From the NCBI GenBank assembly GCA_000004985.1, contig GG738886.1: 64,000 nt of DNA; one strand, given 5' to 3'. The number at the start of each line of letters is the position of its first letter. The stretch's first letter is position 1. Below the pieces are notes generated by a model, which worked only from the letters and a program-made list of their open reading frames with translations, made no database searches and was not told the DNA's origin. The position numbers and the translations under genes are program-made. Origin of the DNA: Naegleria gruberi (taxonomy: Eukaryota). Shown one piece after another: positions 7,601-59,400 of the stretch.

Positions 7601-7915
7601 TTGGGATTTACTGAAGTTGATTGTGCATCGAATGGATTGGAATGTTTTGAAATGTACAAACAAAAACAATATTCAATCATTTTATTGGACTTGTTGATGC
7701 CAGTCATGTGTGGCAAGCAGAGTGTGAAACATATTCGAGAATTTGAAGAGAGTGAAGGAAGAAAACGAACACCAGTAATTGCCATCACTGCCAACATTTG
7801 GGAATCAGTTGATACTCTCTCACAACTTGGATTTGACTCTGTCATTTACAAACCAATCCTTATTGAAAAATTGAGGGAGGAAGTTGAACGGTTAACGCAA
7901 GAAAGCAACTCATAG
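4638..7915 (+). CDS. hybrid histidine kinase, copy 1 (HisKA H-box + HATPase_c + pseudo-receiver + C-terminal receiver domain)
   Basis: Low-complexity N-terminus, then TM segments. H-box ISHEA-R/NPLHGIIGAS is split by a 73-nt GTATGT..TAG intron (5991..6063), with the Arg codon split ag|a. N-box LMNFVSNSIKYS, G1 IDNGKGI, F FKAFQ, G2 GVGLNISKQLIEKMKGSIIVSSEIGKGTT. Receiver has ITDDN..., LLDLLMPVMCG (phospho-Asp) and YKP. Reading frame changes by +1 near 5470..5490 relative to copy 2 (ORFs 4638..5543 and 5482..6063 overlap). Confidence 0.85.
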
Positions 7916-18704: not shown

Positions 18705-19613
18705 TTTTTTTATCGGCTTTTTTGTTTGCACATTTGCGTTGAAGAGATTCAAAAGCCCTGTTTCACTCAATCTTTGTTAATTGTGCGTTAAATTGGAATA
18801 TTAGATAATCATCATGATTGAATTTTATTAATACTATCATATTCTACTATCAAAATTGATGAGGAGAGTTTTTGATTTATTTGAAGCATAGATGACGTAT
18901 TCAAGTATTAAAAATACACAACTAAGAGATTGAATGTTCTTGCTCAATGCACATTTTCCTCTTCTTGATGTTACCGATTGCATTCCCCTCAAGACAACAA
19001 AATTGATTGACTATTAGACAACAACGAGATAAATGATTCTTTTGTTGTTGTAAAATAACAAGGAGTCAGACGAGCTGCTAAATTGTCTACAGGTATAATT
19101 CTGTTACTACAATAACGGAAAAGAAAGCATTCATCATTAACGCAATCATTCAATTATTCTCTCTATTTTGATTGACTTTATCATCTTTGAATGAAATTGT
19201 GGTTTTTCATTTTTAATAAAAATAATTTCAAAAAATTATTTTACACCTTAACCTTTTTCGTTTTCATTTGAAGCCTTCCAAAAGAACAATTCACAATTTG
19301 AATGGCTTCATTGTCATAGTACTTACTAATGAACCTTAAAATTTTCAAGTTTGTTTGTTTGGAATATTACAATACGATTAAATTAACAATAAAAAATTAA
19401 CTATCAGTCATCCATCATTTCAAACTATTTAACCGGTTCAATATTGAATCGTCCCAAATTGTTATTTTACAATAAATTCATCTCTCTATTACATCAACAC
19501 AATAAACTTGTCCCAAATTCAAATCATAACTCAATCCATGTAAGCAGCCAGCGATAAACTATATTCATAACCCAGGGCTTTGTATTTTTCAAATGTCACC
19601 AGCACTATAAAAA
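18705..19613. promoter_or_regulatory. ~0.9-kb divergent intergenic/promoter region between ABC1 kinase (-) and Sec7 gene (+)
   Basis: Longest non-coding interval in this compact window. No ORF with any recognisable domain. AT-rich with T/A runs. Confidence 0.35.
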
Positions 19614-22600: not shown

Positions 22601-23588
22601 AGAATTATTCTCACAATTCAAAGATATTAACATGAACTTTATTGGATCATGTTACGATACCATCGCAAGAAATGCTATGGTTCTCTATGATGAAGAAGTT
22701 GATTCTGAGGATAGAACAAATTTCGAGTCAGACGATCAGATCGATTTATTCTTCAAATGCTACAAACCAAGAGCAGCATTGCCAGCTTCAGCTAGTGATT
22801 CTCAAATAACAGTTCACAGAGCTATCAAATCTCTGAGTTTGGATGGAGACAAAGTTAAGGAATTGATGGAAAGTGCTATTACATTCTTCTTCAAAGCCAA
22901 AGTTATACATGATGGAGTCATTAATAGAATTCAAATCAAGGACTCTGATCCAAATCTCGAGTTAACAACCACAGAAACTATTACTGAGTCTGGTTTGACA
23001 ATAACAAAAGTCAAGCTCAGGGATCCAACAGAAATTAATAATGAGGCAAAGACTGGTAATTACTTTATCTGTGCTTATAGTGTTGCTGATCGCACAAGCT
23101 TTTTGATTGTTGAGCATATCATCAAAGCAATTAGAAAGGCCAAGAGAAGAGAAAGAAAGGCAGAAAAGAAGAAGAATAAGTCTTCCAAGACAAAGCCTCA
23201 ATATAGCACCTTAACTGGTTCAGTTACCGAGGAATTACTACAAATGCTCAATGGAGATGATAGTGACTACAATAATGACAAGTTTATGGTTCTTGTGGGC
23301 TGTAAAGCTGATGTTCCAGATGACCAAAGACAAGTTTCAAAGAAAGAAGGTGGTGAACTAGCTCTCAAGTACAGTATTCCATTCTTTGAAGTTTCTAATG
23401 GAGATATGTTTGGAATACGGAAAGTTTTCTTGAATGCTATCGATTCCATCAAGAGACAAAATGCTTCATACGTGGATGCAGTCAAACAAATGAATGACTT
23501 CCACAAGAGAATGAATATTGCAAAGCAAAACAAGAAAGGCCAAATAGATGTTAACTCTCTTGCTATACTGCCAAAGTGTTACATTTAA
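19614..23588 (+). CDS. Sec7-domain ArfGEF-like protein (1324 aa, single exon) with Ras-like GTPase motifs flanking the Sec7 domain
   Basis: Sec7 core: LSKFDRALRSFFIQFKLPKEGQQVTRIAEVF...CYLLVCSMLMVNTQLHNP (Glu finger present). A P-loop-like segment KIVVIGCRGIGKSEMVYKF lies ~aa 345. C-terminal to Sec7 are Ras-like G3-G5 segments: KTGNYFICAYSVADRTSF, MVLVGCKADV, FFEVSNGDMFGIRKVFLNAI. The N-terminus has long poly-Asn/Ser tracts. Confidence 0.85.
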   Translation: MSIRQKLFPQRKRMSGIFESEHSPTDVDSLKKNRRVSNASDMMLSHPPIDQHTSNLLNTSLCNNPSMSEDSLSRKVTIGSSTCIDSSTGSSEVDSSPNNNGNTLDIKSSRGKQEQSSTVMIATAPPAGSDAVNDDVASSGSSKNSLKNEEKNASLLPQQDSSSTSIKSDSSSLNNNNNNNNISNNSSVSSSSSASVVDNIEDDMTKNRSLTYAVGDSKFKGIGPNDVKSPQSQNATTVSTFLTDEQPSTISPTTAMNNRFQGISSKDAKPTTTTSTTSQPKHANPPPIQTTSSVSNNGKSSTPTNNKPASSKPVEKPRVSQDLSREAALKKKATGKSLTMPSSSQNKIVVIGCRGIGKSEMVYKFLHNEIRFYHQLKKDKAHLLEELKGTLASEQKTINEKKTQSASNQQNATTTPTNNLPSSSTSCTITPKTEPSPTKVQDNLPIDPGAIVENEIECALKPSDSLEVRKLKLLLMKKDQEIKKQKEEMENTIQELSSMWKKERTEKVELEEEYVEKENELNHYISVVEQIHHLINLDPKSDEIPEAISFKLPENPNNGILSPNRKRKTSAHAGVIAATPKQNLSTLPPSTPNVVTPMNNRNSHNNNHNDDFFDLQNFNPKDPVPVTPMSSQRKARHVRTESTFQKLRTNQYQVVAQDLRKSIEEDIDADVSDPETNSIALAANETDETTDEINMFLADFNRTEESNFVLTNNPSMNRIQAPQVKNSLSNSEDSAGDEDTENDYSESSDITSVSSTASSNHSLVKAQSTMDVRGDRGQPVVANSLILPNVGKSKSPTIVQSTDYKYDENLFVKLLTPSFHLTEGLRKFNTGKPKDALKYLIENAILPDPEAGLTETKEKPEAVISRFMAIADSLNKEKLGEFLGDERNNVYLEEFVRFHVQELYNEEKKQGDDTYLSKFDRALRSFFIQFKLPKEGQQVTRIAEVFANVYSENNKNDGELNGNGDACYLLVCSMLMVNTQLHNPIANIKLSREQFVELFSQFKDINMNFIGSCYDTIARNAMVLYDEEVDSEDRTNFESDDQIDLFFKCYKPRAALPASASDSQITVHRAIKSLSLDGDKVKELMESAITFFFKAKVIHDGVINRIQIKDSDPNLELTTTETITESGLTITKVKLRDPTEINNEAKTGNYFICAYSVADRTSFLIVEHIIKAIRKAKRRERKAEKKKNKSSKTKPQYSTLTGSVTEELLQMLNGDDSDYNNDKFMVLVGCKADVPDDQRQVSKKEGGELALKYSIPFFEVSNGDMFGIRKVFLNAIDSIKRQNASYVDAVKQMNDFHKRMNIAKQNKKGQIDVNSLAILPKCYI

Positions 23589-28211: not shown

Positions 28212-30089
28212 TTAAAAATCATTACACAATTTCAATATTTCCTTATCATTTCTCAAATCAATGGATGCATATTTCAGTGCACTCTTATTTTGTTTGACTG
28301 CAAATGAAACTATTCCTCTATCACTTCTGAGTTTTAAACACATTTCACGTAACAGATTGCCATCTCTTTTCACAACTCGAATCACAAATACTCTATCTGA
28401 GACCTTTAATTTACCAGCACTGTAGAATGCATTAATAGCATCAGTTTTTAACGCTTCCATCAAAATCTCTCTATCTATTTGATGTTTTCTTGGAAAATTT
28501 GGCAAATAATTCCCAGATTGTTTGACTAGTTTCTGAAAGCAAAATAGTCTGTCATTAATCAATCTTTTAGATATCTGACTAAAATTCAACATGACGTTTC
28601 AGCAGCTTTGAGAACAATTTGTTCATCATCCCAAAACTCTGCTGTGCAAGAATTGATTGCATCTCCATCTTGTGTGACTGCAGCCAAAACTATTTCTCTA
28701 TCTGTTTGAAATTGTTCACCAACATAATACAATATCTCACCACATCTTGTTACAGCTTGTAATACAAATTCTCTGTCTTGTTTAAATTCATTTGGGATTG
28801 CATTCATTGCTTCGTACAGATTAAAACATCCTGAGGATATTTTAATTGATTCCAATAATACCTCTCTGTCGTGTGTGAATTGATCTGGAATATTCTCCAA
28901 AGCAAAACCAGTCTTTGCAAATGATTGGATGAATTCAATGTCATTTCTCAATCTATCAGAAATATATGTAATGGCCAAACCAGAAGATTTGAGTGCCAAC
29001 TCAGCAATTTCCTTGTCATCTCTCAATTCAGTTGATGCAAATTGGAAACAGGACCAATTTTTCATAACAAGCATTTTCACAAATTCCTTATCATTTTTCA
29101 ATTCATCAGATGCGTGTTGAAAAGCTTGTGGATTTTGTTGAATAGCTTCCATAACAATCTCTCTATCATTTCTCAATTCCTTACACGCATATTCTAGTGC
29201 TTTCACACCGTCCAAATTTGATATTGTGAGCAGAAACTCTCTATCATTCGTAAATGCCCTACTTGCACTGTTAATTCTGGCAAGAGATTTTGAAAATGCT
29301 TTAAAAATCACATCTCTATCATTTCTCAATAATTGGGATGATTGAAAATATGCATTTGGCTTTGATTCTAGAGCTAGTAAGACAATTTCCTTATTATTTT
29401 GCAATTCTTTGGACGCAAACTCTAGGGCATCACCATTTTCTTGTACAGCAGTTCTAACTATTTCAATATCATTTCTAAATGTTTCAGATACAAATTTAAG
29501 AATTGGTCCCCAAGTACTAACAGCTGTCATTACAATTTCCCTGTTTCTTTTCAATTCTTCAGATGCGTACGAAAGAAAATGACCCTTATGTTGCACAGAA
29601 GTTTTTACAATTTCAAAATCATTTCTCAATTCTTCTGAGGCACATCTGATGCTTCCATTTTCCTTGACAGCTGCCATGACAATTTCTCTATCATTTCTGA
29701 AAACATCATCCACATAATTGAGTGTCTCAAGACCACTATACTCTGTTGTAGTCAAAACAAACGATCTATCCTTCCACAATCCAAATTTTCTAGCCAAAAT
29801 ATCAAATTTATCACAAGGCAAATCGAATATTTTGTCATGAATAAAAGTTCGATCTCTAATCAATCAATATTGGAAAATTAATTGGTTGATTTTCATTGTT
29901 AAATTCTTCTCCATGATCAAAAAACTCCCAAACAGAATCATCACTTCTCCCGAAACAATATTCAAGTATTGGTTTTAAAATGGTGTCGTGTTTGTCATTG
30001 GGTGGAATGTCTGCAATTTTTGTGGAGAGTAATTGGGAAGAGAGGGACAAATCTAAAAAACACTGATGGTTATTCTTCATCATTGGCAT
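28212..30089 (-). CDS. DUF4116-repeat protein (RNDREIV..A..NG.AL.YAS repeats), gene model interrupted by two frame changes
   Basis: Three overlapping minus ORFs (29856..30089, 28586..29863, 28212..28592) all continue the same ~25-aa repeat pattern. The junction at ~29859..29866 is a tandem ATCA|ATCA (tgat|tgat on the coding strand); removing one copy restores ...NFPILIRDRTF. The junction at ~28586..28595 needs a -1 shift (...AAETS/MLNFSQISKRLINDR). Confidence 0.65.
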
Positions 30090-35034: not shown

Positions 35035-36354
35035 TTAAGTGTACATGTAGAATTCTTCCTTCTCTTGATCATTTTCAAATACAGGAACAAAATCAATAGT
35101 TTTAACTTCAGAGAAACCTTCATCCTCACTTGGTTCTTCCAATTTCTTATTATAAGTATTGTAACCAACTCCTGGAACGTGTGGATGACCTCCCTTTGAT
35201 CTATTTTCACGAAGAACATTGAGATGTTCTGCCAATTCTCTTTCAACATTGAAAGAGAAACATCTAATTGGAATTTCAAATTCTTCAGCAATATCAATAT
35301 AATTCTTTCTAGAATCGGCATCTGGATTAGTATTATCTACAACAACTGATTTACCCTTTTGAATTGCTTCTTTACATGCCTTAACACATTTTGGAATAGT
35401 ATTGAGAGTATCTCTATTTACATGAACATAACCTGCAGGAATGAAAAATCTTTTAGCAAAAGTTGTTTTTCCTGAAGCTGGCCAACCTTGGAAAACTACA
35501 ATTTCTTGTTTTGATGAAATTAAATCTTCCTTCTTATATGCACTCTTGGTTGATTTAAATTTCTTAATATCATAACCATCAAGACTCCAAGTTGGATATT
35601 CTTTTTCTCCCAAGAAATAAGGTTCTGGTGTGAAAAATTTAATTCCAAGATTGAGTGCAAACTTTCTATCACCACAACTATGATCTTTCTTAATTTTCTT
35701 ATTATTAGAATCCTTTCTTTCAGGTCTACCAGCAGCATCTCCAACATATAGACTTGTTGATTTATCCAATGAAATATTCTTTTGATGTTTTGGAATAATA
35801 GTATCTGCCAAATAATTCCACATACCAGTGCATGGTTTTCTCATATGATTATCTGATAATGCAGCAACAACAAGTATTGGAATTTCACTACCAATAGCTT
35901 CATTAATAAAACCTTCAATTCTTTTTTCCAAATCTTTCTTTGTCAATTTACCCTTCTTTACACCATTTTGATTAGTGAAAATAACTAAAAGTTTCTTATT
36001 CTTTTCATGTTCTTCTTTCAATTTTGTTGAAACACTCTTATGGAATAATTTCCAATCGGATGGACCTGTTGCAAAGGCTTTACCACTCTTTGTTACAACC
36101 AATGTAGAATCAAAGTCATAACCAGCAACTCCTAAAAGTTGAGCATTATCAAATTTTGTTGAAGCAAAGTTCTTATGAACAAAATAATAAACTTCATTAT
36201 CATCATCCGAGTACCATGATCCTAGTGATCCTTTTGATTGTTTAGCTACTGGTTCATCATCACTCGATTCATCTAAACTAGCGTCTGATTCGTAATCAGA
36301 ATCATTTTCTTCATCACGTTTTCTCTTGGTGTCGGCTTTCTTTCCTCTTGGCAT
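35035..36354 (-). CDS. polynucleotide kinase 3'-phosphatase (PNKP)
   Basis: ORF 35035..36405 starts at TTG; first ATG at 36354 (MPRGKKADTKRKR). HAD-phosphatase motifs AGYDFDSTLV (DxDxT) and VGDAAGR, plus kinase Walker A GWPASGKTT. Confidence 0.85.
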   Translation of the reverse strand: MPRGKKADTKRKRDEENDSDYESDASLDESSDDEPVAKQSKGSLGSWYSDDDNEVYYFVHKNFASTKFDNAQLLGVAGYDFDSTLVVTKSGKAFATGPSDWKLFHKSVSTKLKEEHEKNKKLLVIFTNQNGVKKGKLTKKDLEKRIEGFINEAIGSEIPILVVAALSDNHMRKPCTGMWNYLADTIIPKHQKNISLDKSTSLYVGDAAGRPERKDSNNKKIKKDHSCGDRKFALNLGIKFFTPEPYFLGEKEYPTWSLDGYDIKKFKSTKSAYKKEDLISSKQEIVVFQGWPASGKTTFAKRFFIPAGYVHVNRDTLNTIPKCVKACKEAIQKGKSVVVDNTNPDADSRKNYIDIAEEFEIPIRCFSFNVERELAEHLNVLRENRSKGGHPHVPGVGYNTYNKKLEEPSEDEGFSEVKTIDFVPVFENDQEKEEFYMYT

Positions 36355-36562
36355 TTTATATTGTTTTTTTGTGTTGATTTGGTGAATAGTAATTGCTTCT
36401 TGCAAGAGATTTAAACGTCATAATTTTGGCGGGACAGGTTAAAAATTCCAAATAAAAGAAGAAACAAAAAATGCTGTAATTAAATGGATTTTTTTTGGTA
36501 AGATGATGGTTTACAATCTGGTTTAACTGAGGTTTTAAGATTGTAAAATACAATTTGTGAAT

Positions 36563-43693: not shown

Positions 43694-44797
43694 TCATTCG
43701 TTATTGTCACTCTCCGATTCATCTTCTTCCTTGTCATCCTTCGTTTGGAAATTGTCAACCAATTCGACAGTGACGTTACCTGCTTCCGTTGCTGGTTGTG
43801 GAGATGAATATTCGATGGGTTGTGTGTTTGGTTGAGTGTGTTCTGTTGCATTTGAACTGTCAATCTTCTTCTTCTTTGAATAAACCATCACTGCCCTCGC
43901 AGGTTTAACAATGTCAACTTTCTTGTCACATACAATCACAAAAATCTTGTTTCCATCAGAATCCATTTCCGTTTCAATCGGCGCCAAAGTTTGCATATCT
44001 CCGTCTTTTGGAATGTATTGTTTCAAAGTGTACAGTGAGGTCGTACCACTTTGCTTTTCGTGTATGACACCAACGTCAAACTCAATTTCATCTAATACCT
44101 TTTGCATCGTTTTTGAATCTAATATCGTTTCAATGGAAACATCAATCAACAATTGCCTTTCTTTTCTACTAACACCTTGAAAAACAAATTTCAAGTGTGA
44201 AGGGTAACGAATCGCAAAAATATGCTTGGTTGCAGTTTCGAAATGATGAAACGCTAACAAGTCGGTTTCATATTTGACTGTTTTAGTGATGTGTGATTTT
44301 GATGGAGTGCGAAATAATGATTCTTCTGATGAGTCTTCAGATGATGATGAATCATCTGTGTTCGTTTCGTATTCACTTTCGTCTTCCTCTTCGTCATCAT
44401 CAACAACTTTAGGTGCTTCTAACTTTCGTTTCTTTGCTTCCTTGACACGTACCAATTCATCAGCATATTTTGCGGATTGTTCTTCAAAGTATGCCTTTTT
44501 GTTCTCCATTTCAATTGATGACTTGTCTTTAATTGTGCTTTTGTATTTTCGTTGAACTTGAGACCAACTGTAACCGTTTTCGTTCGCGAACGCAACAAAA
44601 GCGTCTTTGTTTGTTTGATAAACTTTACCTCTATTTGCGAGCCAGAAGAGGCGTAATCTTTCTGTATCAACTTCTTGCCACTTTTTGGACTTCTTTTTCT
44701 TCAGTGACTGGGCTGTATCAACAGTACTACTATTGGCAACAGAGCTAGAAGTCGGGGCTTGTACTTTTTCTGTGTTCTTCCTCTTCTTGGTGCCCAT
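43694..44797 (-). CDS. Harbinger-associated Myb/SANT-like DNA-binding protein
   Basis: 367 aa. N-terminal KKWQEVDTERLRLFWLANRGKVYQTNKDAFVAFANENGYSWSQVQRKYKSTIKD (Myb/SANT-like Trp spacing), acidic stretch, atypical codon usage. Confidence 0.65.
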   Translation of the reverse strand: MGTKKRKNTEKVQAPTSSSVANSSTVDTAQSLKKKKSKKWQEVDTERLRLFWLANRGKVYQTNKDAFVAFANENGYSWSQVQRKYKSTIKDKSSIEMENKKAYFEEQSAKYADELVRVKEAKKRKLEAPKVVDDDEEEDESEYETNTDDSSSSEDSSEESLFRTPSKSHITKTVKYETDLLAFHHFETATKHIFAIRYPSHLKFVFQGVSRKERQLLIDVSIETILDSKTMQKVLDEIEFDVGVIHEKQSGTTSLYTLKQYIPKDGDMQTLAPIETEMDSDGNKIFVIVCDKKVDIVKPARAVMVYSKKKKIDSSNATEHTQPNTQPIEYSSPQPATEAGNVTVELVDNFQTKDDKEEDESESDNNE

Positions 44798-44863
44798 TTT
44801 TTTTTCAATTTCGAATATCGTTTTTCACAAAAACATTCGTGTTCACTTTTGAATTATGAAAAA

Positions 44864-45748
44864 ATGCAAAACTTGTTTTCTGTGTTTCGATCATACATGC
44901 CAAAAGCAACTGAAGAAACATTCAAAGCGTTTTTTGCATTCAATCCTAAGGAATTACAAATTGTTTATGACACGTTTGTTGGTAGAGTAATAGCACCAAA
45001 GTGGTTTCTAATCACCTTAGAATGGTTAACGAATTATCCTAAACATCATGTACAACATGTTTATTGGAATATTTCTAGAAGAACACTTGTTGGAAGATTA
45101 TGGAAGACGGTTTTGTTTCTCTCTCGTCTTCTCCCTGATTTTGATTTTGATGATAGACTAGAAGAAGAACCAGCAAAACGAATTTTCAAAGATATCAAGT
45201 GTATCGTTGACGGTGTTGAAATTAGAATACGTCGCCCATCTAAAAGACGATTCACTAAAAAACAAAATTGGATCCACCAGAAAACATTTTTCTCAAACAA
45301 GAAGAAAATGCATGCGATGAAATATCAAGTGGTTGTCACTCTCCGTAAAGGGAAGATTATAAATGTCAGTCGTGCGTATAGAGGACGTGTTCATGATAAA
45401 AAGATATTTGATGATTACATAAGGGAACACGGTCACGAATTTGGTGAACAAGAACATCTTGGTGACCTTGGTTATGTTGGAGTACCAGAGATATTTACAC
45501 CTTTCAAGAAACCGCGGGGTGGTGAATTAGAACAGTATCAGAAAACAATTAACAAAGTCATTGGTGCTGCGCGTGTAACTGTTGAAAATGTGATTGGTCG
45601 TATCAAACGATTTGACATACTTAACCACACATTTAGGCACCCACTTGTCAAACACGAAGATGTGTTCATCATTTGTGCGAAACTGGCGAACTTACATCTT
45701 CGCTTTCATCCCGTTCGAAAGTGTGACGAACCGCTCTTGGACGTTTAA
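44864..45748 (+). CDS. Harbinger/PIF DDE transposase (DDE_Tnp_4)
   Basis: ORF 44759..45748 starts at TTG and overlaps the Myb-like gene; first ATG at 44864. Catalytic triad context is intact: CIVDGVEIRIRRP (D), HLGDLGYVGV (D), ARVTVENVIGRIKRFDIL (E). Confidence 0.8.
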   Translation: MQNLFSVFRSYMPKATEETFKAFFAFNPKELQIVYDTFVGRVIAPKWFLITLEWLTNYPKHHVQHVYWNISRRTLVGRLWKTVLFLSRLLPDFDFDDRLEEEPAKRIFKDIKCIVDGVEIRIRRPSKRRFTKKQNWIHQKTFFSNKKKMHAMKYQVVVTLRKGKIINVSRAYRGRVHDKKIFDDYIREHGHEFGEQEHLGDLGYVGVPEIFTPFKKPRGGELEQYQKTINKVIGAARVTVENVIGRIKRFDILNHTFRHPLVKHEDVFIICAKLANLHLRFHPVRKCDEPLLDV

Positions 45749-49880: not shown

Positions 49881-51408
49881 ATGACCAACAATAAGAACAC
49901 CAACAACAAACAAAAGAAGACTACCAAAAAGAAGAAGGGAATTTCATTAGATGACTTTTACAAATCGGCCAGTGCAGAAAAATTGCAAAATAATAGGAAA
50001 ATTATTAATCATCAATTTATTCCAATTGAGTTCCGATCTGATGAGGAGTATATTCTAAAATGTGTGGCCAAGAATTGGGCAATTCTTCGCTATGCATCTG
50101 ATGAGTTGACTACTTCCAAGGAATTTATGATGAAATGTGTTAAAATTTCTGGTCAATCATTTAGTTATGCTTCTAGTCAACTGAGAAATGACAAGGAATT
50201 GGTTATGGAAGTGATTAAACAAGGAAGGGAGAACTTGTATTATATTTCACAGGAATTGAGAAGTGATAGGTAGGTATAGAAAGCATTAAGTTAATAATTT
50301 ATTAACAAAAATCTCTTTCGTATTTAGACAAGTCGTTTACGAAGCTGCTATTCGAAACGAGAGTGCACTTTTTTATGCCTCTACTGAGCTACGAAATGAT
50401 AAAGAGTTTGTGAAAGATCTTGTGAGATTGAACGGTTTAATACTTGAATATGCCTCTGATGAGCTACGTAATGATAGAGAGGTGGTTATTAATGCCATTT
50501 CACAGAATGGACTAGCTCTAAAATTTGCATCCAATCTGTTGAAGAGTCAGGATGATATTGTTGAGCTAGCTTTCAGTCAAAACAAGTTGGCTTATCAATT
50601 TGCATATCCACCAAGAAAAGCAACAGATTTTTTCACAAGTGATGAATTGAAAAATGATAGAAATGTTGCATTGCAAGTGGTTGCCCTGGATGGTCTTTTA
50701 CTTGGTCAATTGAACGATAATTTTAGGAATGATAGAGAAATTGTGTTGAAAGCTGTTGAAAATAATGGAATGGCATTGAATTTTGCTTCTGAAGATTTGA
50801 GAAATGACAAGTCAATCATTCTGGAAGCTGTCAAAATTAGACAGAATGAAATTGGCAGGAAACCAATTGCTGCGTATGAGGTTGATCAAGCTAAACCTTT
50901 TGAATTAGTTTCAGATGAGTTAAAGAGTGATAAGCACTTTATTTTACAAGTCATTCAAAACAATCCTCACACATTTAAATATGTCTCCAATGAATTGAAA
51001 TGTGACACTGAATTCATTTTACAAGCTTTCAAGCAACATTCTTACAAAATCATGCACTATATTTCCAAAGATCTTCGTCAAGAAAGTACATTCCAATTGA
51101 AACTCATTCGTGATACTCTTGAAGCATTAGGATACATACCTGAAGGAATCACCAATAAGGAAGTAGTTTTAAAAGCCATTGAAAAAGATGGAAGAGCTTT
51201 GAAATGGGCTTCTTATGAGTGGCAGAATGATAAGCAAGTGGTACTAATGGCCATCAGAAGAAATGGCTATGCTATCAAATATGCTAGTGAAATATTACAA
51301 AAAGAACGTGATTTGATTTTGGAAGCTGTAAAGCAGAATGGATATTGCAGAGAATTTTCAACGGAATTACTAGATGAAAGAATGAAATATTGCTATCCAG
51401 ATTTGTAG
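49881..51408 (+). CDS. DUF4116-repeat protein, 2 exons
   Basis: join(49881..50269, 50328..51408). A 58-nt intron (GTAGGT at 50270 to TAG at 50327) splits an Arg codon ag|a. Exon 2 continues the repeat (QVVYEAAIRNESALFYASTELRNDKEF...). About 14 repeats in total. Confidence 0.8.
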
Positions 51409-51704: not shown

Positions 51705-52928
51705 ATGGGGTCCAAGTCATCACACCCAATGAACAAGCCATCTCAAATCGGAGAGTCAATAACAATTCAACAAGAACAGTCAACTAGAGAAGAAAGTTGG
51801 ATTATTTTGGGAACAGCTGATAGTGGAACTTCAACGTTTTATTATATGATTGAACGTATTTTGAGTAATAATCGACACTATTCGAATCGAAATGAGTTTA
51901 ACCATGATTTACAATTAGTTTGCTTCTTGATGATTAAAAATTTGTGGACTATTTTGGAAAGTGAAAGGAGTAGAATAATCGACTTGATTCCAAAGAGTTT
52001 CGGACCATGTTTGGAGAATTTGAATGATAAATCAAATATTGATCAATCACAAATTTCAGAATTTGATTATTGTGAATTATTGATGTATATTTGGAATATT
52101 CCATTCTTTAGAGATTTATTCGAAACTAAATGGAATGCTATTAGTCCTAACATTTCCGAAAATTTCAAAGATCCCAACATTAATTATTACCATGTATTGA
52201 GCTTATTAATTTTGGAAAATTTAGAAGAATTAATTTCCAGAATCAAATCAAAAACCGAATTCTTTCCTTTGGCTCTATCCTATGAAATTACAAAGGGAGT
52301 ACGAGAGTTCAGATACAATAATATACTTGTTAAGAATGCTGGAGGATCTAGAGGTCAAAGAAAGAAATGGTTGTGTTGTTTCAATAATCAATCAATTGCC
52401 ATTTTTATAATATCACTTGCAGAGCTAGATCAATACACAGTTGAGGACACACAAACATTGAGGATACAAGAGTCGAAACTGTTGATGGAAGAGTTGATAA
52501 ATACGCGTTTTTTAAAAACAGCAAGGAAAATTGTAATCTTTACAAAACCAGATATTCTAATTAAGAAATTGCAAAAAGGACATTCCATTCATTTGGGAAA
52601 TTACAAAATGAGACCTGAATTTAAAGAAATTATTAATAAGCATGAGCTGAAGAAGGTTGTAAACTCAATAGTTTCTCATTATTTGAATTTCGAAAATGAG
52701 ATTGAATTTAAAAAGATTCATTCCTTTCATATTGTGAATACGACAGAATTGGAAGAAGTGAATTGTGTAATGGAGAGAATATTGGATCATAATTCGAAAA
52801 ATGCATTCATTTCTCCTTGTCTCTTGCATGGCTATAGGAAACCCGAACAGTTTGAAAGAGAAATGCAGGAGAGATTATTTTGGAAATGTAGAGAACAAAG
52901 ATTATCAGATATAAGGGTTTTAACTTGA
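51705..52928 (+). CDS. G-protein alpha-subunit-like protein with degenerate GTP-binding motifs (probable pseudo-GTPase)
   Basis: Starts MGSKSS (N-myristoylation consensus) in an aaaaaaATGG context. The fold pattern matches G-alpha (helical-domain insertion; FDVGGQRSERKKWIHCFE region conserved as NAGGSRGQRKKWLCCFN). But P-loop GAGESGKS is GTADSGTS (no Lys), DVGGQ is NAGGS (no catalytic Gln), the switch I Arg is missing, and NKKD is TKPD. Confidence 0.75.
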   Translation: MGSKSSHPMNKPSQIGESITIQQEQSTREESWIILGTADSGTSTFYYMIERILSNNRHYSNRNEFNHDLQLVCFLMIKNLWTILESERSRIIDLIPKSFGPCLENLNDKSNIDQSQISEFDYCELLMYIWNIPFFRDLFETKWNAISPNISENFKDPNINYYHVLSLLILENLEELISRIKSKTEFFPLALSYEITKGVREFRYNNILVKNAGGSRGQRKKWLCCFNNQSIAIFIISLAELDQYTVEDTQTLRIQESKLLMEELINTRFLKTARKIVIFTKPDILIKKLQKGHSIHLGNYKMRPEFKEIINKHELKKVVNSIVSHYLNFENEIEFKKIHSFHIVNTTELEEVNCVMERILDHNSKNAFISPCLLHGYRKPEQFEREMQERLFWKCREQRLSDIRVLT

Positions 52929-53178: not shown

Positions 53179-54877
53179 ATGACTCAACTTGTTCTAATAG
53201 ATTTTCACACTCCATGATTGGACTAATTTTCACAAATTAAAAGAAAAATTCATCAAACAAGAAAAAGGACTCGTAAATTGGCTGAACGAAACTTTAAATA
53301 TAAAATCGGACAAGTTCAATCTAGACGAATATTGTTTTTTAAAAATCGAATATGCATTCGAAAGGGATGTTGTTTCGAGTCTAATTAGAAATAATGACAT
53401 TAGAATACCTAGTTGTTTCGGATGGAGGACAGATCTTGAATTTTTGAAAAAAGCTGCACTTTCAGGTTATACAACAGCTAGAAAAGAAATTGAGGAGCTA
53501 GTTACTGATGAGGAGGTTTGGAGATTTCTTGTTAAAACGTATAATTGGACTGGATTTAGAGATGAATTGACATTTAACAAGGAGTTTATGTTGTTTGCTA
53601 TTGAGGAAATGATTGTTAGTGCCGAAAGTTTATTGGAAAGGTGTAACGAAAGTTTCAGAAATGATCCAGAGACTGTAAGGAGTGTATATTTTGCACATGT
53701 TGTGACTCGAACATATTCTTTAGCGGGTTTTTCAGATGATGAATATATCGGAAATCCCTTCGATATTTTGCAAACTCAAACCTATCTCTATTCACATCGG
53801 TCAATTGTTGAAAATTTGAGAAATGACCCTATTTTCATTTTGGATTGTGTAAAGAAATTTGGAAGAGTTTTGGCATTTCTTGATTTGAAATACAGATCTG
53901 ATAGAAATTATGTGCTGGAAGCTATTAGACAGATAGATGGTGGAACTTATTGTTATCACAAAGGATTATTGAGATTCGCCTCTGAGGAGTTAAGAAATGA
54001 CAGAGAAATTGTTAAGGTGGCTGTGCAAAACTGGGCCTCATGTTTCCAATTTGCATCAGATAATCTCAGAAGGGATGAAGAGGTAATTCGTGAACTCATT
54101 TCAATTTCATCAGGAAATGTTTTAGAGTATGCTGAAGAAAGTATTTTGAAAAATGTAGAACTTGTACTCTTTGGATTGGAATCGGATGCTGGTTGTTTTG
54201 AATTATTTGATCAGAGTTTACAAAATGATAGAGATTTTATACTAAGATGTGCAAAAATCAATGGTAACATACAAGTTCCAGATATGTTTTCTAGTGATAG
54301 AGAAATTATGAAAACTCTATTAGAAACTTGTTTGAGGAATCGCCAAAGTGAGAATGATATTTTTTACACAATTGATGAATCTCTGTTTATGGACATTGAA
54401 TTTGTTAAGGAGCTAGTTGATCTTTATGAAATATATCCAGACACTCATTTTCCAACAAGGTTATGCAAATTTATTAATGAAGAAATAATTTGGAAAATAA
54501 TTCAACAATCTGCAAAAAAGGGGCTAATGAGATATGAAATTCGTGAGATATCTGATGTTTGGAAAGATCCATTGTTTGTGAAAAAGGTTCTCGATCTTGG
54601 AATTAAATTATCACGAGTTGATTATACAGCATTCGCTGACGATTTGAAATTAAGGATATGGAAAGACGAAACCAATATTTATTCGTTTCCATTCAAAAAG
54701 AGCAGTATGGAATTTCAAAGACAAGCTGTCAAGCTCAAACCTGAATGTATTTACGGTTCCTACTATTTTCAAACAATTTGTGGATATAGTGAAGATCGAG
54801 AAGAATTGTTGAGGTTGAGAGCAAACAGATTGGAATATTTACAATTCCACCTCCCAAAAAGATTTGATACTTGGTGA
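53179..54877 (+). CDS. DUF4116-repeat protein; N-terminal start unclear (frame change near 53201..53217)
   Basis: ORF 53444..54877 has a TTG start; the same frame is open back to 53201 with no ATG. An ATG at 53179 in the +1-adjacent frame (MTQLVLIDFHTP*) could serve if one nt is skipped near 53215. Body carries DUF4116 repeats (RNDREIVKVAVQNWASCFQFASDNLRRDEEV...). Confidence 0.65.
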
Positions 54878-55138: not shown

Positions 55139-56413
55139 ATGCAAAGACTTTCCCGCCATCTTTTCAAGCCTTGTTCCACAACAAATTCCTCATCCTCGCT
55201 TCTCTCCGGCAATAAGAGAGCAGCCTCTCTTCTCTTGAAGAATTTTATCTACATCAATACACAAGCACAACAGCAACAACAACAACGCTTCTTCTCATCA
55301 AGTATATTGTCTAGAAATAATGTTAGTAGTGTTGTGCCTCCTCCTCTAACAACAGAAGTTGCTACCGCTGCTGCTAATACCACTACTTCTCAAACATTGA
55401 ATACAACAACAACATCAACAGTCGATGCTGCTTCTGTTGCTGCTACTACTACACAAAAGAAGGCTTTTGATGAACCACTTCACGGACAACAAAGTTTTGA
55501 TTTGGATGATTTTGAAGATGACGTTGCTGGACAACAATTGGAAGCTGCAGAAAATATGAGTGAAATGTTTTCATCAATTACCGATTATTTGAATCCTTCT
55601 AAACTTCTTGAAGCTTGTATTATTGCTCTTCATGATGCTGGTTTGCCATGGTGGGGAAGTATTGCCACTGTTGGTTTTGCTCTTCGTCTTGTCATGTCTC
55701 CTCTTAACGTTATGAGTATGAGATCAAGTACTATTATGAGCAAGTTGGGAACATCTTTAACAAATTTGAAAAAGGACCAAGTTGACCCAAAGAAATCACC
55801 AACTGAAAGAGAACATGCCAGAAAGACTTATGAAGAAATTACAAAGAAGGAAGGTTTCAAAATGTCTCACATGTTTTTACCATTATTACAATCACCTATT
55901 TTTATTGCCTTCTTCTTCTGTATCAATAGAATGGTTAGAGAAATTGAAGGTTTACAATGGGGAGGTATGCTTTGGTTCAATGACTTGACTGTCAAAGATC
56001 CAACCTATGTTCTTCCAATTATTTCAGCTTCATGTTTTATGGCTGTTTTCCTTGTCAATACATTCCTTAGAAGTTCAGGATCGGGAAGAATTCAATCTCT
56101 GATTGCTGTTGGTATGGGTGTTTTCTCATTTGCATTGGTTCCATTCACTGGCAGACTTCCAGCTGCTCTTTTCATGTATTGGATTCCATCTAACTTTTTC
56201 CAAATTCTCTTCTATTTGCTCATGTCTAGAAAGCCAGTAAAGGCCTTCTTTAAGATTCCAGAAGTTGATCCAACAAAAGGAAGTAAGGGAGCTATGGGTA
56301 AGGCTGAAAAGGTTTTGGAAAAGTTCTTCCCATCGAAATCAAAGACTCCTTCTATTACCCAAACTAAACTTTTGACAAGACAAGCCCTCGATCAAACCAA
56401 ACGTAAGAATTAA
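55139..56413 (+). CDS. Oxa1/YidC/Alb3-family mitochondrial inner-membrane insertase
   Basis: 424 aa. Presequence-like N-terminus with poly-Q/T. Core LPWWGSIATVGFALRLVMSPL, GMLWFNDLTVKDPTYVLPI, ALFMYWIPSNFFQILFYLLMS. Lys-rich C-tail. Confidence 0.85.
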   Translation: MQRLSRHLFKPCSTTNSSSSLLSGNKRAASLLLKNFIYINTQAQQQQQQRFFSSSILSRNNVSSVVPPPLTTEVATAAANTTTSQTLNTTTTSTVDAASVAATTTQKKAFDEPLHGQQSFDLDDFEDDVAGQQLEAAENMSEMFSSITDYLNPSKLLEACIIALHDAGLPWWGSIATVGFALRLVMSPLNVMSMRSSTIMSKLGTSLTNLKKDQVDPKKSPTEREHARKTYEEITKKEGFKMSHMFLPLLQSPIFIAFFFCINRMVREIEGLQWGGMLWFNDLTVKDPTYVLPIISASCFMAVFLVNTFLRSSGSGRIQSLIAVGMGVFSFALVPFTGRLPAALFMYWIPSNFFQILFYLLMSRKPVKAFFKIPEVDPTKGSKGAMGKAEKVLEKFFPSKSKTPSITQTKLLTRQALDQTKRKN

Positions 56414-56451: not shown

Positions 56452-59400
56452 TTAAAGATATGAAAAGCATTTACATTTGCAATCACTGACAGGACATTCG
56501 TCATGATGCTTAAACCAATCCACTAAATGTTTTACGTGACCACCATGTTTACATCTTGTGCACCATGAAAAACAGAAATCCATTTCAGTTGTTTGGTTAT
56601 TACCCATAGAATGAGATGGTGATCCAAATGACATTAAGCAAACAGCACATTTTGGAAGTGGCTTTCTACAAGAAGGACAACTGGTTGTTTTTGGCATTGA
56701 GGAAGTATTACCATGTTTTGTGGCTAATTGAGCTTGTCTACCACCCTTACTGGCCAGTAAACTAGAATGATGGAGGGATTGAGAACAGAATGCACACTTA
56801 ATCGACACACTTGGTTGAAGAAGAGGTGCTGTTCCAGAGAAGGCGATCGATTGGGGATGGTGGTGTGGTCCTTCATGATTAATTATATTTTCTCCTCTCA
56901 CGGCTTGCTGTATGCTTATATCTAAGAATGCTCTTTGCTCCCACATCTTCCATCTATCCAATAAATCTCTATAATTTTCCATCCAAATGTCTGAGTATGA
57001 AACATTGTTAGAAAACTTGGAAGTGATTGCTCGATTAAATGCTAAACATGCTGTTTGAACATCTCCCGTCCTATCTACATATTGTTGCATCAACTTGAAA
57101 CTATCAATGGTTTGTAAACCTGTAATAATCAGTCCTTGAATATCCGCCGTGGCAAATGCCTTTTCTTTAAGTGAACTGATATACTTGCCAAGTTCAATAT
57201 CATTGAGATAATAACAAGCAAATGCAATTCTATCACTAACTGGTATGGCTTTTTGATCCAAAACATAATCAACGTTTCTAGGTTCCGAAAGTAAGAACCC
57301 AAAAGCTGCTGACAAGTATGGATCTTTCAGTTTTGGATACAAATTCTTATAAACATTTTGGAATTCTTCTCGTCTGTTTTCATTATAGCCTCCCAAAGCA
57401 TATGCCAAGAACATATAATTACTTCTCTTATCATTATCGCTTAATAACCCCAAAACATTAGCAGCAGTTTTGATATCCAAGTTGAAAATAGCAATTGCTA
57501 CACTTCTTTCATCTAACTGGTCTGCAGGTATTTGTGAATTTTTCAAATTACTTAAATATTCTTGATCCCAGCCACACACGTGCAAACAAATACTTCTTTG
57601 TGGACTTTGATATCTTATTGTTGATCCAAACTTGATTGCTTCAGATTGAGGAGGGTAGATCATATTCTTAGCTGTATTTATATTGGTTGGATACGAATAT
57701 GGAAGTGGCTTGAATGGTAAAATGTCATTTCCAACTTCTTGACCAGTATTTTGATATAAAAGAATAGATGAATCTAGAATGGCTTGGATACCTGTATAGT
57801 AGTGTTCACTTGGTTGTTGTCTATCGTTACGAATATTCAACTCTTTCATTTTGTTAATCCACGACCAAATAATCATTCCATCTGTATCTTTTAAGGATTT
57901 AGAAACTTCAATATTTTGTTTCACATCAACACCAATTCCCTTCTTGGCTCTTTCTTTCATAATACTCATAATATCATTCGATTGGGTGAAATCATTCTCT
58001 ACTACCTCATTATAGTGTGCTGATACTATTTCTTCGTTACATGAAATTGAGAATTTGACAAAATCTTTGAGGAGAGTATATTGGACTGTACCTGTTGAAG
58101 TTGACAACAGAAGGCATCTTGGAATAGTTGGGTGGAAGGAAAATGATGATATCGAGCCGTTAGATGAAAAAACTGATTTGTGGTTAGAAATTTTGTATTT
58201 CACAGACTTGGATTGTTCTGAAAGATCGCAAAGTTTGACAGTATTTGAATCCCTAATAAAGAAACATTAGCAAAAAAATATTGTTATGAAATGCTACTTA
58301 CTTTGTGAGTACACCAATTACATTCTTGTGAGATGTAGACCATTGAACTTGTGAAATTACTGGAGGAGCTTTTTGAACTAATTGTTGAGGTAAAATATTT
58401 GCAATATTGAGTTCTCTAACTGGATTTGGCATTTTTCTCATATCCCAAATCTTGACAACACTATCCTCAGAATATGTTGCAAATTGATTATTGTCGAAAG
58501 GATTAAAATGAATTCCCAAAACTGACTTGTTATGAACAGCAAAATTCTTTGGAGGTTTGTATGTCTTCATTGATGATGCATATTCTCTTAAATCAAATAA
58601 ACGAATATACTTCAAACTAGTACCTAAAAGGAAGCTAGAAGGTTGTCCTGGAATCCATGAAATACTAGTGGCACCTTCACCTGGACATAATTCATAAAGA
58701 GGTTTTGTCACTACCTTAGTTGTGAAATATGTTCTTGATGGTAATTGCAAAGAATTAGAGATGGTATGTTGTTTTTTAACAGGATTTACAAATGAACCAG
58801 TATGTAAACCACTTAATCCACCGTAATCACTACTAACAGTACTTTCAGTATCAGAAATAATACTAGCTGAAGAATTCAATCTATTTACATCCCAAATTGC
58901 AACACAATTTTGTTTTGGTACCTTGTCATAACCTGCTGCAATTAAATTAGTATCCACACTATTCCAATCAATACATCTACAAGGAGGTGATGAAGTTTTT
59001 CCTCTATTGGCTGGGTCTGTTCTTGTAAATTCAGCAAAAACATGTTGATCACTTTGAACATTATCAAACAAAATTGATCCATTAGACAATCCAACAGCAT
59101 GAATATCTCTATCCTCTGGAGACCAAGTACTGCACTATTCAAGTGTTAAAAAACAGTCAATAATAAGACTAAAAAACATACCAAAGCTTCGGATTGAAGA
59201 GAAGTTGTAGAAATTGATGTGAATTCTTGTTTTGTATCAAATTGAATTGGTTTTTCTTCAAGTAAATTATTCAATATCTGTTAATAACAATCGGATCACA
59301 ATAAATTTCAATTATCCTTCGTTACTACATTTTAAATTGATGTAACTACTTACTCTTTCATCAATTTTATAATAGTAAACATCTCTGCCCGATACTACAG

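What the first reader, a model, noticed from the sequence alone, without database searches (positions are those of the whole stretch)
51705..52928. G-alpha-like protein missing every GTP-binding and catalytic residue
The protein has the G-alpha fold signature: a myristoylation MGxxxS start, helical-domain spacing, and the conserved RKKW..CF block after switch II. But it has lost the P-loop Lys (GTADSGTS), the switch I Arg, the switch II catalytic Gln (NAGGS for DVGGQ) and the NKxD Asn (TKPD). This should be a nucleotide-free or GTPase-dead G-alpha. It could act as a scaffold or a dominant binder of G-beta-gamma or receptors, and has probably not been characterised.
Basis: partly seen in the sequence, partly recalled or inferred. 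Interest (0 to 1): 0.6.

Follow-up and report, generated by a model that had tools for sequence, protein, structure and literature searches.

The report
Catalytically dead G-alpha paralog in Naegleria
This is a real, intact gene of the amoeba Naegleria gruberi. It encodes a G-protein alpha subunit that has lost the residues needed to hydrolyse GTP, and probably to hold it tightly. This kind of "decoy" G-alpha is already known from plants, so the gene is a modest new example and not a new kind of thing.

Summary
The ORF at 51705-52928 (+) is a complete 407-aa G-alpha protein: Pfam PF00503, E=3e-46, and a confident AlphaFold model whose PDB neighbours are all G-alpha. It is identical to Naegleria gruberi NAEGRDRAFT_70767 (D2VP86), annotated only as "predicted protein".

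- P-loop GTADSGTS: Lys to Thr, and the Ras-G12-type Gly to Ala.
- Switch I: Arg to Tyr.
- G3 NAGGS: Asp to Asn and Gln to Ser.
- G4 TKPD.
G5 is also changed (IVN in place of TCA).

"Every residue lost" overstates it. The two Mg2+ ligands (Ser, Thr), the G3 Gly, the G4 Lys and Asp, and most of switch II (RxxRKKW..CF) are kept.

The protein belongs to a small, divergent G-alpha subfamily, seen in Naegleria and in unnamed environmental eukaryotes. Its marks are xKPD, YHIVNT, a shortened switch I and a ~45-aa C-terminal extension (FISPC...LSDI). Most members keep the P-loop Lys. Only this protein, its 82%-identical paralog and one other N. gruberi member have lost it.

Both paralogs stay intact with conservative replacements, which argues for purifying selection.

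Best reading: a myristoylated pseudo-GTPase that acts independently of a nucleotide cycle, convergent with plant XLG "decoy" G-alpha. Classical G-beta-gamma or receptor coupling is doubtful. Interest is modest.

The parts
51705..52928 (+). Complete single-exon gene for a 407-aa G-alpha-like pseudo-GTPase. It equals N. gruberi NAEGRDRAFT_70767 / XP_002674060.1 / D2VP86.
   Evidence: ORF. Pfam PF00503 at E=3.2e-46. 100% identical to database protein P0001. AF2 pLDDT 84.8, with all Foldseek hits G-alpha.
51705..51722 (+). MGSKSS, an N-myristoylation-type start (Gly2, Ser6). MGxxxS is conserved in most subfamily members.
   Evidence: Sequence. Alignment A1 shows MGSKSS, MGAQQS, MGTKPS, MGSKQS and MGGKLS. 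The modification itself was not tested.
51705..51791 (+). N-terminal aa 1-29. No alpha-N helix is predicted, and this is the least conserved segment.
   Evidence: pLDDT below 50 for residues 1-23/26 and no helix in both AF2 runs. 50% identity to the paralog here, against 82% overall.
51810..51833 (+). Degenerate G1 / P-loop GTADSGTS (aa 36-43): Lys46 to Thr and Gly42 to Ala. Ser47 is kept.
   Evidence: The paralog P0002 is identical here. The sister protein P0003 has GTANSGKS.
51888..52250 (+). All-helical domain inserted in the Ras-like domain (aa ~62-182).
   Evidence: AF2 secondary structure, helices 62-182. 85% identical to the paralog.
52278..52298 (+). Switch I SYEITKG (aa 192-198). The Arg finger is replaced by Tyr193, Thr196 is kept, and linker 2 is 4 aa shorter than in canonical G-alpha.
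52335..52382 (+). G3 / switch II NAGGSRGQRKKWLCCF (aa 211-226): Asp200 to Asn and Gln204 to Ser. Gly, Arg205, Arg208, Lys210, Trp211 and Phe215 are kept.
52542..52553 (+). G4 TKPD (aa 280-283): Asn to Thr, a subfamily-wide change. The guanine-specificity Lys and Asp are kept.
   Evidence: (T in 21 of 151 representatives).
52728..52745 (+). G5 region HIVNTT (aa 342-347) in place of FTCATD. This is subfamily-wide (YH[IV]VNT).
52785..52925 (+). Subfamily-specific C-terminal extension (aa 361-407). It holds the conserved FISPCL motif, a predicted helix at 380-402 and the terminal LSDIRVLT. It follows a short alpha-5 helix (349-360).
   Evidence: Alignments. AF2. 83% identical to the paralog. No Pfam domain.

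Best explanation
This is a functional, selectively maintained pseudo-GTPase of the heterotrimeric G-alpha family in Naegleria gruberi.

Shown:
- The protein has the complete G-alpha architecture: a Ras-like domain plus an inserted helical domain.
- It belongs to a divergent, Naegleria-centred subfamily. The subfamily marks are xKPD, YHIVNT, a shortened switch I without the Arg finger, and a ~45-aa C-terminal extension (FISPC...L[ST]DI).
- After the split from its sister P0003 (which keeps Lys and Asp), and before the duplication that produced its 82%-identical paralog, this lineage also replaced the P-loop Lys (Thr) and the Walker-B Asp (Asn). The catalytic Gln and the Arg finger are also absent, but the sister P0003 lacks them too (Ala and Tyr).

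Inferred:
- It cannot hydrolyse GTP.
- It binds guanine nucleotide weakly or not at all, so it does not cycle.
- It is probably N-myristoylated and membrane-attached.
- It works through protein-protein contacts. The candidate surfaces are the still-conserved switch II / alpha-3 face (R216, R219, K221, W222, F226, R253, E256) and the subfamily-specific C-terminal module. In that role it would be a constitutive adaptor or decoy within Naegleria's very large G-protein/RGS network.

The closest functional parallel is plant XLG2, a "decoy" G-alpha. This protein arose independently of XLG2 and has a different architecture.
For: Family and fold:
- Pfam E=3.2e-46.
- AF2 pLDDT 84.8 and pTM 0.84.
- All top Foldseek PDB hits are G-alpha.

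Motif substitutions:
- They are seen in three independent alignments.
- No canonical motif occurs elsewhere in the protein.
- Of 42 columns at least 80% conserved in 100 other G-alpha proteins, 15 are changed. The changes cluster in the nucleotide site: G42A, K46T, D200N, Q204S, N269T and a deleted linker-2 Asp. Switch II and alpha-3 residues are kept.

The loss is derived:
- The NJ tree gives (P0001,P0002) 100% and +P0003 100%.
- P0003 has GTANSGKS and DVGG.

Selection:
- 81.8% identity to the paralog, and 4 internal indels, all in frame.
- The degenerate P-loop lies in a run of 22 identical residues.
- In a neutral simulation run to the same divergence, 0 of 2000 sequences stayed stop-free (mean 6.75 stops). 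Only 1 of 2000 had replacements as conservative as those observed.

Analogy:
- XLG2 lacks K46, the DVGG Asp, Q204, R178 and A326.
- It binds GTP-gamma-S at about 2 uM, yet still binds G-beta-gamma and RGS1 and works without GTP binding.
Against: - No biochemical or expression data exist for this protein, and dN/dS could not be computed because the paralog's DNA was not obtainable.
- Retention of Ser43, Thr196, Gly214, Lys281 and Asp283 leaves room for residual, low-affinity guanine-nucleotide binding.
- The perfectly conserved P-loop/alpha-1 stretch could mean the pocket still binds something.
- No partner is identified. The switch I-III region is the most divergent folded segment between the paralogs (71% identity), which could also reflect relaxation.
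- The AF2 evidence for a missing alpha-N helix is weak evidence.
Confidence: 0.55

Rival explanations
1. A GTP-locked, constitutively "on" G-alpha. The protein still binds GTP, with reduced affinity but enough at cellular GTP concentrations. Lacking Arg, Gln and the Walker-B Asp, it never hydrolyses the GTP, so it signals permanently in an active-like conformation instead of being nucleotide-free.
For: - Both Mg2+ ligands are kept (Ser43, Thr196), as are the gamma-phosphate-sensing Gly214, the guanine-specificity Lys281 and Asp283, and the switch II / alpha-3 residues R219 and E256.
- The P-loop region is 100% conserved between the paralogs.
- N. fowleri G-alpha-1, with a similar TAQ P-loop (Ala at the G42 position), still binds GppNHp and merely hydrolyses slowly.
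- XLG2, which has no Lys, still binds GTP-gamma-S at about 2 uM.
Against: - Loss of the P-loop Lys together with the Walker-B Asp is the combination that made XLG2 effectively nucleotide-free.
- G5 Ala326 is replaced by the bulkier Asn. Ala326 substitutions lower affinity, as cited.
- Linker 2 / switch I is shortened by 4 residues.
Confidence: 0.3
2. A redundant paralog in decay. It is one of about 44 N. gruberi G-alpha genes, drifting toward pseudogene status after duplication and with no function of its own.
For: - N. gruberi has a very large lineage-specific G-alpha expansion.
- No ortholog closer than 44% was found outside the P0001/P0002 pair.
- Several subfamily members show independent erosion of G1 or G3: P0005, P0007, P0009 and P0037.
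- There is no expression evidence.
Against: - Both paralogs keep full-length ORFs after 18% amino-acid divergence.
- A neutral simulation gives 0 of 2000 stop-free sequences.
- The replacements are significantly conservative, and all internal indels are in frame.
- Fold-determining residues, the myristoylation motif and the C-terminal motifs are intact.
Confidence: 0.1
3. A gene-prediction or assembly artefact: a frameshifted or mis-joined ORF whose real product carries canonical motifs.
For: None found.
Against: - A single continuous ORF aligns colinearly to 329 of 333 Pfam profile positions.
- The same substitutions are present in an independent paralogous locus on another scaffold.
- No canonical motifs occur elsewhere in the protein.
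Confidence: 0.02

Closest known systems
Plant extra-large G proteins (Arabidopsis XLG2, the "decoy" G-alpha)
   Same: Both have a G-alpha-homologous domain in which the P-loop Lys, the G3 Asp, the catalytic Gln, the switch I Arg and the G5 Ala are all replaced. XLG2 is measured to be nearly nucleotide-free, yet it still binds G-beta-gamma and RGS1 and functions independently of nucleotide. It is the best model for how this protein may work.
   Different: The origin is independent: the nearest relatives here are Naegleria G-alpha proteins, not plant ones. XLGs carry a long N-terminal Cys-rich/NLS extension. This protein instead has a normal-length myristoylatable N-terminus and a ~45-aa C-terminal extension. 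G-beta-gamma binding is untested here, and is doubtful because no alpha-N helix is predicted.
Canonical heterotrimeric G-alpha subunits (Pfam PF00503; e.g. G-alpha-i1, G-alpha-q)
   Same: Same fold, domain order, switch II RKKW..CF block and MGxxxS start.
   Different: G1 Lys, the G2 Arg, the G3 Asp and Gln, the G4 Asn and the G5 Cys-Ala are substituted. Linker 2 is shortened. Alpha-5 is short and is followed by a novel extension in place of the receptor-binding tail.
Naegleria fowleri G-alpha-1 (Bosch et al. 2022, PMC9283941)
   Same: Both are Naegleria G-alpha proteins with an unusual P-loop: 23-TAQ-25, against TAD here and TAN in P0003. That P-loop has Ala at the Ras-G12 position, slows GTP hydrolysis and abolishes RGS engagement.
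   Different: NfG-alpha-1 binds GppNHp and hydrolyses GTP, so it is a working if slow GTPase. It is 343 aa. Its reverse primer implies a C-terminus ...ILNII, so it apparently lacks the C-terminal extension (my translation of the primer). Its sequence could not be retrieved, so the relationship is unresolved.
PseudoGTPases in general (class concept)
   Same: A GTPase fold with degenerate G motifs, retained under selection for non-catalytic roles.
   Different: I found no G-alpha-family example outside plants that has been characterised. The two papers in the library that mention both pseudoGTPases and heterotrimeric proteins concern small GTPases, and I did not read them.

Membership tests
Heterotrimeric G-alpha (Pfam PF00503) | Significant full-length match to the family profile | tested here: met
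   158.5 bits against a gathering cut-off of 48.8, E=3.2e-46, profile positions 3-331 of 333.
Heterotrimeric G-alpha (Pfam PF00503) | Ras-like GTPase domain with an inserted all-helical domain | tested here: met
   AF2 model with pLDDT 84.8 and helices 62-182 inserted after alpha-1. The top 50 Foldseek PDB hits are all G-alpha, with TM 0.64-0.70 normalised by target.
Heterotrimeric G-alpha (Pfam PF00503) | G1 P-loop GxxxxGK[ST] | tested here: not met
   The sequence is GTADSGTS, with Lys replaced by Thr. The column is K in 113 of 118 aligned representatives.
Heterotrimeric G-alpha (Pfam PF00503) | G2 / switch I RxxTxGI, with the catalytic Arg and the Mg2+-binding Thr | tested here: not met
   The Arg position is Tyr193 and linker 2 is 4 aa shorter. 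The Thr (T196) is retained.
Heterotrimeric G-alpha (Pfam PF00503) | G3 DxxGQ (Walker-B Asp, catalytic Gln) | tested here: not met
   The sequence is NAGGS. Asp is 97% conserved and Gln 84% conserved in the other sequences.
Heterotrimeric G-alpha (Pfam PF00503) | G4 NKxD | tested here: inconclusive
   The sequence is TKPD, with Lys and Asp kept and Asn replaced by Thr. Thr occurs in 21 of 151 representatives, including ones with intact G1 and G3. TKxD is a working G4 motif in dynamin-family GTPases (my own knowledge).
Heterotrimeric G-alpha (Pfam PF00503) | G5 T/S-C-A | tested here: not met
   IVN at the aligned position; this is subfamily-wide.
Heterotrimeric G-alpha (Pfam PF00503) | Amphipathic alpha-N helix for G-beta-gamma binding, and a C-terminal alpha-5 tail for receptor coupling | tested here: inconclusive
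   Residues 1-29 show no helix and have pLDDT below 50 in two AF2 runs. Alpha-5 is only residues 349-360 and is followed by a non-canonical extension. These are predictions only.
Heterotrimeric G-alpha (Pfam PF00503) | Guanine-nucleotide binding and GTP hydrolysis | not testable with these tools
   This needs recombinant protein assays.
Plant XLG (extra-large G proteins) | Long N-terminal extension with a Cys-rich region and an NLS, upstream of the G-alpha-like domain | tested here: not met
   The protein starts MGSKSS, 35 residues before the P-loop. The ORF listing shows the reading frame opening only 27 nt upstream of this ATG.
Plant XLG (extra-large G proteins) | Common descent with plant XLGs | tested here: not met
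   The closest relatives are N. gruberi paralogs, an N. lovaniensis protein and unnamed environmental proteins.
Plant XLG (extra-large G proteins) | Degenerate G1, G3 and G5 with loss of the Lys, Asp, Gln, Arg and Ala equivalents | tested here: met
   The same five positions are replaced here: T, N, S, Y and N (against the XLG2 description).
Naegleria xKPD/FISPC G-alpha subfamily (defined here) | [TVS]KPD as G4, YH[IV]VN as G5, shortened switch I, and a C-terminal FISPC...L[ST]DIx[IV] extension | tested here: met
   All four marks are present. They are shared with P0002, P0004, P0005, P0007-P0009, P0012, P0037, P0058, P0067 and P0097.

The most novel reading that the evidence does not exclude
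The xKPD/FISPC subfamily could be a Naegleria-lineage invention of nucleotide-independent G-alpha-like signalling adaptors. Its unique C-terminal module would replace receptor coupling. NAEGRDRAFT_70767 and NAEGRDRAFT_73162 would be its obligately nucleotide-free end-point. That would be an independent, convergent re-invention of the plant XLG "decoy G-alpha" principle in a deeply divergent eukaryote.
Probability: 0.35. Interest if true: 0.5.

Novelty: new member of a known kind. Interest (0 to 1): 0.3.

Why it matters
If it is confirmed biochemically, this would be a second, independently evolved case of a G-alpha subunit turned into a non-cycling adaptor, after the plant XLGs. That would support the view that nucleotide-independent G-alpha functions are a recurrent evolutionary outcome and not a plant oddity. 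The subfamily's conserved C-terminal module is an uncharacterised handle for finding new G-alpha partners in Naegleria, a genus that includes the pathogen N. fowleri. The practical impact is limited. The gene is one of about 44 G-alpha genes in a non-pathogenic species, no close ortholog was found in the N. lovaniensis or N. fowleri data searched, and deviant Naegleria G-alpha motifs have already been noted in the literature.

Tried and rejected
1. dN/dS between the paralogs. The look-up of encoding contigs has no record for P0001, P0002 or P0003, and the other DNA collections do not cover eukaryotic genomes. I substituted a neutral-mutation simulation and a replacement-conservativeness test.

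2. Word-indexed homology searches. They recovered only N. gruberi paralogs and a few fungal G-alpha proteins and missed most of the subfamily. The exhaustive phmmer run was needed.

3. Anantharaman et al. 2011 (Gene 475:63). This is the likely primary source for "deviant Naegleria G-alpha". It is not held by DOI or by PMC id, so I rely on the secondary statement in Maruta et al. 2021.

4. Orthology with N. fowleri G-alpha-1 (TAQ P-loop). I considered it but could not establish it. The sequence was not retrievable, and the protein's length (343 aa) and the C-terminus deduced from its primer argue against the C-terminal extension.

5. Operon-like or functional linkage with neighbours. I rejected this. 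It is a eukaryotic locus, the flanking DUF4116 genes are members of a large repeat-protein family, and the RGS gene lies 37 kb away.

6. Support for monophyly of the whole subfamily. Bootstrap values were ambiguous after re-rooting. The subfamily therefore rests on shared derived characters, not on that node.

7. Pocket geometry. AF2 model coordinates are not exposed, so I could not inspect the pocket or the packing of the extension.
Full report
WHAT IS THERE. Window 51705-52928 (+) is one uninterrupted ORF of 407 codons, ATG to TGA. No alternative ORF of 60 aa or more lies on the other frames. The window is about 33% GC throughout. The product is 100% identical to a database protein labelled "predicted protein [Naegleria gruberi]": EFC41316.1 / XP_002674060.1 / UniProt D2VP86 / NAEGRDRAFT_70767. 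The window is therefore a piece of an N. gruberi nuclear scaffold, and the gene model is single-exon.

FAMILY AND FOLD.
- The protein matches Pfam G-alpha (PF00503) at E=3.2e-46 and 158.5 bits, against a cut-off of 48.8. The match is colinear over profile positions 3-331 of 333.
- phmmer against all PDB sequences returns only G-alpha chains. The best is G-alpha-q at 1.7e-17.
- AlphaFold2 with a 9-sequence alignment gives pLDDT 76.9. With a 102-sequence alignment it gives pLDDT 84.8 and pTM 0.84.
- Both models show a Ras-like domain with an inserted all-helical domain (helices 62-182).
- All top Foldseek hits in the PDB are G-alpha subunits.

THE MOTIFS. Three independent alignments agree: HMMER against G-alpha-q, MAFFT with a canonical representative P0016, and MAFFT with human G-alpha-i1.
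- G1 is GTADSGTS. Lys46 is Thr, and the Ras-G12-equivalent Gly42 is Ala.
- Switch I is SYEITKG. The Arg finger position is Tyr, the Mg2+-ligand Thr is kept, and linker 2 is four residues shorter.
- G3 is NAGGS (Asp200 to Asn, Gln204 to Ser).
- G4 is TKPD.
- G5 is IVN in place of TCA.

No canonical GxxxxGK[ST], DxxG, RxxTxG, NKxD or TCA occurs anywhere else in the protein.

Among the 151 best G-alpha representatives, the Lys column is K in 113 of 118 non-gap sequences and the Asp column is D in 143. So the losses are rare.

An unbiased count used 42 columns that are at least 80% conserved in 100 other G-alpha proteins. The protein keeps 27 and changes 15.
- The changes cluster around the nucleotide.
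- The retained residues include the P-loop glycines, Ser43, Thr196, Gly213/214, Lys281 and Asp283.
- Much of switch II / alpha-3 is also retained: R216, R219, K221, W222, F226, R253 and E256.

The title's "every GTP-binding residue" is therefore an overstatement, but the four listed substitutions are all correct.

A SUBFAMILY, NOT A LONE ODDITY. An exhaustive phmmer search of 1.84 billion representatives found 2648 G-alpha relatives. Only three scored at E of 1e-30 or better: P0002 (82% identity), P0003 (44%) and P0004 (36%). Together with P0005, P0007-P0010, P0012, P0035, P0037, P0058, P0067 and P0097 they form a divergent group. Its shared derived characters are:
- MGxxxS at the N-terminus in most full-length members;
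- a shortened linker 2 / switch I without Arg at the Arg-finger position;
- [TVS]KPD in place of NKxD;
- YH[IV]VNT in place of TCAT;
- a ~45-residue C-terminal extension with the conserved motifs FISPC[LI] and L[ST]DIx[IV].

The named members are N. gruberi (six proteins) and N. lovaniensis (P0097). The rest come from metagenome or SRA assemblies of unnamed eukaryotes; one sits next to a proteasome alpha-subunit gene.

Most members keep the P-loop Lys: GTANSGKS, GTSDSGKS, GNTSSGKT, GAQETGKT, GGSDSGKS, GSGESGKS. P0004 even has a fully canonical DVGGQ. TKPD and IVN are therefore subfamily signatures that coexist with an intact P-loop and G3. They are not evidence of nucleotide loss in this protein. 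TKxD is a normal G4 motif in dynamin-type GTPases (my own knowledge).

What is specific to this protein and its paralog is K46T plus D200N. In an NJ tree, (P0001,P0002) and ((P0001,P0002),P0003) each have 100% bootstrap support. P0003 retains Lys and Asp. The losses are therefore derived: they arose before the P0001/P0002 duplication.

Another N. gruberi member, P0037 (NAEGRDRAFT_50404), has independently lost the Lys and the Asp. Several others have eroded G3 (TAGGK, DAFGR). The subfamily is prone to losing its catalytic site.

IS IT MAINTAINED?
- The paralog's DNA could not be obtained, so no dN/dS was computed.
- The two proteins are 81.8% identical over 401 aligned residues. There are 73 replacements and four internal indels, all in frame.
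- The degenerate P-loop lies in a 22-residue identical run.
- The helical domain, G4, G5 and the C-terminal extension are 83-90% identical. The N-terminal 30 residues are 50% identical and the switch I-III region 71%.
- I mutated the ORF neutrally to the same protein divergence. The simulations gave a mean of 6.75 stop codons, and 0 of 2000 stayed open. Only 1 of 2000 had replacements as conservative as observed: mean BLOSUM62 +0.37, against -0.40 under neutrality.
- This rejects long-term neutral decay of both copies. It does not exclude recent relaxation in one of them.

HOW IT MOST LIKELY WORKS. Both hydrolytic residues (the Arg finger and the Gln) are gone, so GTPase activity can be considered lost. 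This is an inference from the established G-alpha mechanism.

The P-loop Lys and the Walker-B Asp are also gone, G5 Ala is replaced by Asn, and linker 2 is shortened. Nucleotide affinity should therefore be strongly reduced.

The best calibrated precedent is Arabidopsis XLG2. It lacks the same five positions (K46A, DVGG Asp, Q204, R178, A326Q). It binds GTP-gamma-S at about 2 uM, 100-1000 times weaker than GPA1, and GDP at about 177 uM. Its authors judge it nucleotide-free in vivo. It still binds G-beta-gamma and the RGS1 domain, and it functions when GTP binding is abolished.

By analogy I propose a myristoylated, membrane-attached, non-cycling adaptor or decoy. It would act through its conserved switch II / alpha-3 face and through the subfamily-specific C-terminal module.

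Classical coupling is doubtful.
- Both AF2 runs leave residues 1-23/29 disordered, with no alpha-N helix. That segment contains prolines and is the least conserved.
- Alpha-5 is only 12 residues (349-360). It is followed by a loop bearing FISPCL and a new helix (380-402), where canonical G-alpha has the receptor-inserting tail.
- These points are predictions, not demonstrations.

MAIN RIVAL: GTP-LOCKED. The main rival reading is a GTP-locked, permanently "on" protein. Both Mg2+ ligands, Gly214, Lys281, Asp283 and switch II / alpha-3 residues such as R219 and E256 survive. The P-loop is perfectly conserved between the paralogs. N. fowleri G-alpha-1 shows that a TAx P-loop is compatible with GppNHp binding and slow hydrolysis. 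Only binding assays can separate these two readings.

COMPARISON WITH WHAT IS KNOWN.
- N. gruberi is reported to have about 44 G-alpha genes. A review cites Anantharaman et al. [quoted passage not shown]
- A lineage-specific G-alpha diversification in N. gruberi is also noted by de Mendoza et al. 2014.
- Bosch et al. 2022 characterised six of thirteen N. fowleri G-alpha subunits.
- No paper in the searchable library cites this protein's or its paralog's accessions. I could not read the 2011 paper.
- The general phenomenon is therefore known. This particular protein, the K/D-less pair and the C-terminal-extension subfamily appear to be undescribed.
- I rate it a new member of a known kind (atypical or pseudo G-alpha), convergent with XLGs, not homologous to them as a class.

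VERDICT. Interest is modest at 0.3. It is a tidy, testable example of pseudo-enzyme evolution inside a huge paralog expansion, but a G-protein specialist would not be very surprised by it.

Noticed in passing
window 28586-29863 (-), 50410-51408 (+), 53444-54877 (+): Three proteins built from DUF4116 repeats (Pfam E from 7.5e-34 to 3e-115). Two of them directly flank the G-alpha-like gene. This is a lineage-expanded repeat family of unknown function.
   Followed up: partly
window 12202-14709 (+): An 835-aa ORF with a C-terminal RGS domain (aa 674-791, E=1.7e-14) and a long low-complexity Ser/Pro/Lys-rich N-terminal region. It has no hydrophobic 19-mers, so it is a soluble RGS protein and not a 7TM-RGS. 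It lies about 37 kb from the G-alpha-like gene.
   Followed up: partly
window 19614-23588 (+): A 1324-aa ORF combining a Sec7 (Arf-GEF) domain (aa 820-1021) with a C-terminal partial Ras-family match (aa 1221-1280, covering only the last third of the Ras profile). This is an unusual GEF plus GTPase-fragment fusion.
   Followed up: no
window 6071-7915 (+): A hybrid histidine-kinase-type ORF (HATPase_c plus a response-regulator receiver), i.e. prokaryote-style two-component signalling in this eukaryote.
   Followed up: no
window 44759-45748 (+): An ORF with a DDE_Tnp_4 (Harbinger/PIF-type) transposase domain (E=7e-31). It partly overlaps, by coordinates, a 367-aa ORF on the opposite strand (43694-44797).
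   Followed up: no
P0037 (N. gruberi NAEGRDRAFT_50404); not in the window: A second N. gruberi member of the same G-alpha subfamily has independently lost the P-loop Lys (PG---SGAST) and the G3 Asp (EIGGS). This indicates recurrent erosion of the catalytic site within the subfamily.
   Followed up: partly
L001 6001-7116 (Logan SRR15442450) and L002 127-1245 (ENA ERZ929261): Environmental and SRA contigs from unnamed eukaryotes encode subfamily members: P0008, and P0004 with a fully canonical GTSDSGKS and DVGGQ. The C-terminal-extension subfamily is therefore not limited to sequenced Naegleria species.
   Followed up: partly
window 56452-58203 (-), 35035-36405 (-), 16749-18770 (-), 55139-56413 (+): Ordinary housekeeping genes around the locus: a MIOS-like GATOR2 subunit, PNKP (PNK3P plus AAA_33), an ABC1/COQ8-type atypical kinase and an Oxa1/60KD_IMP insertase. 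This is consistent with a normal nuclear chromosomal region.
   Followed up: no
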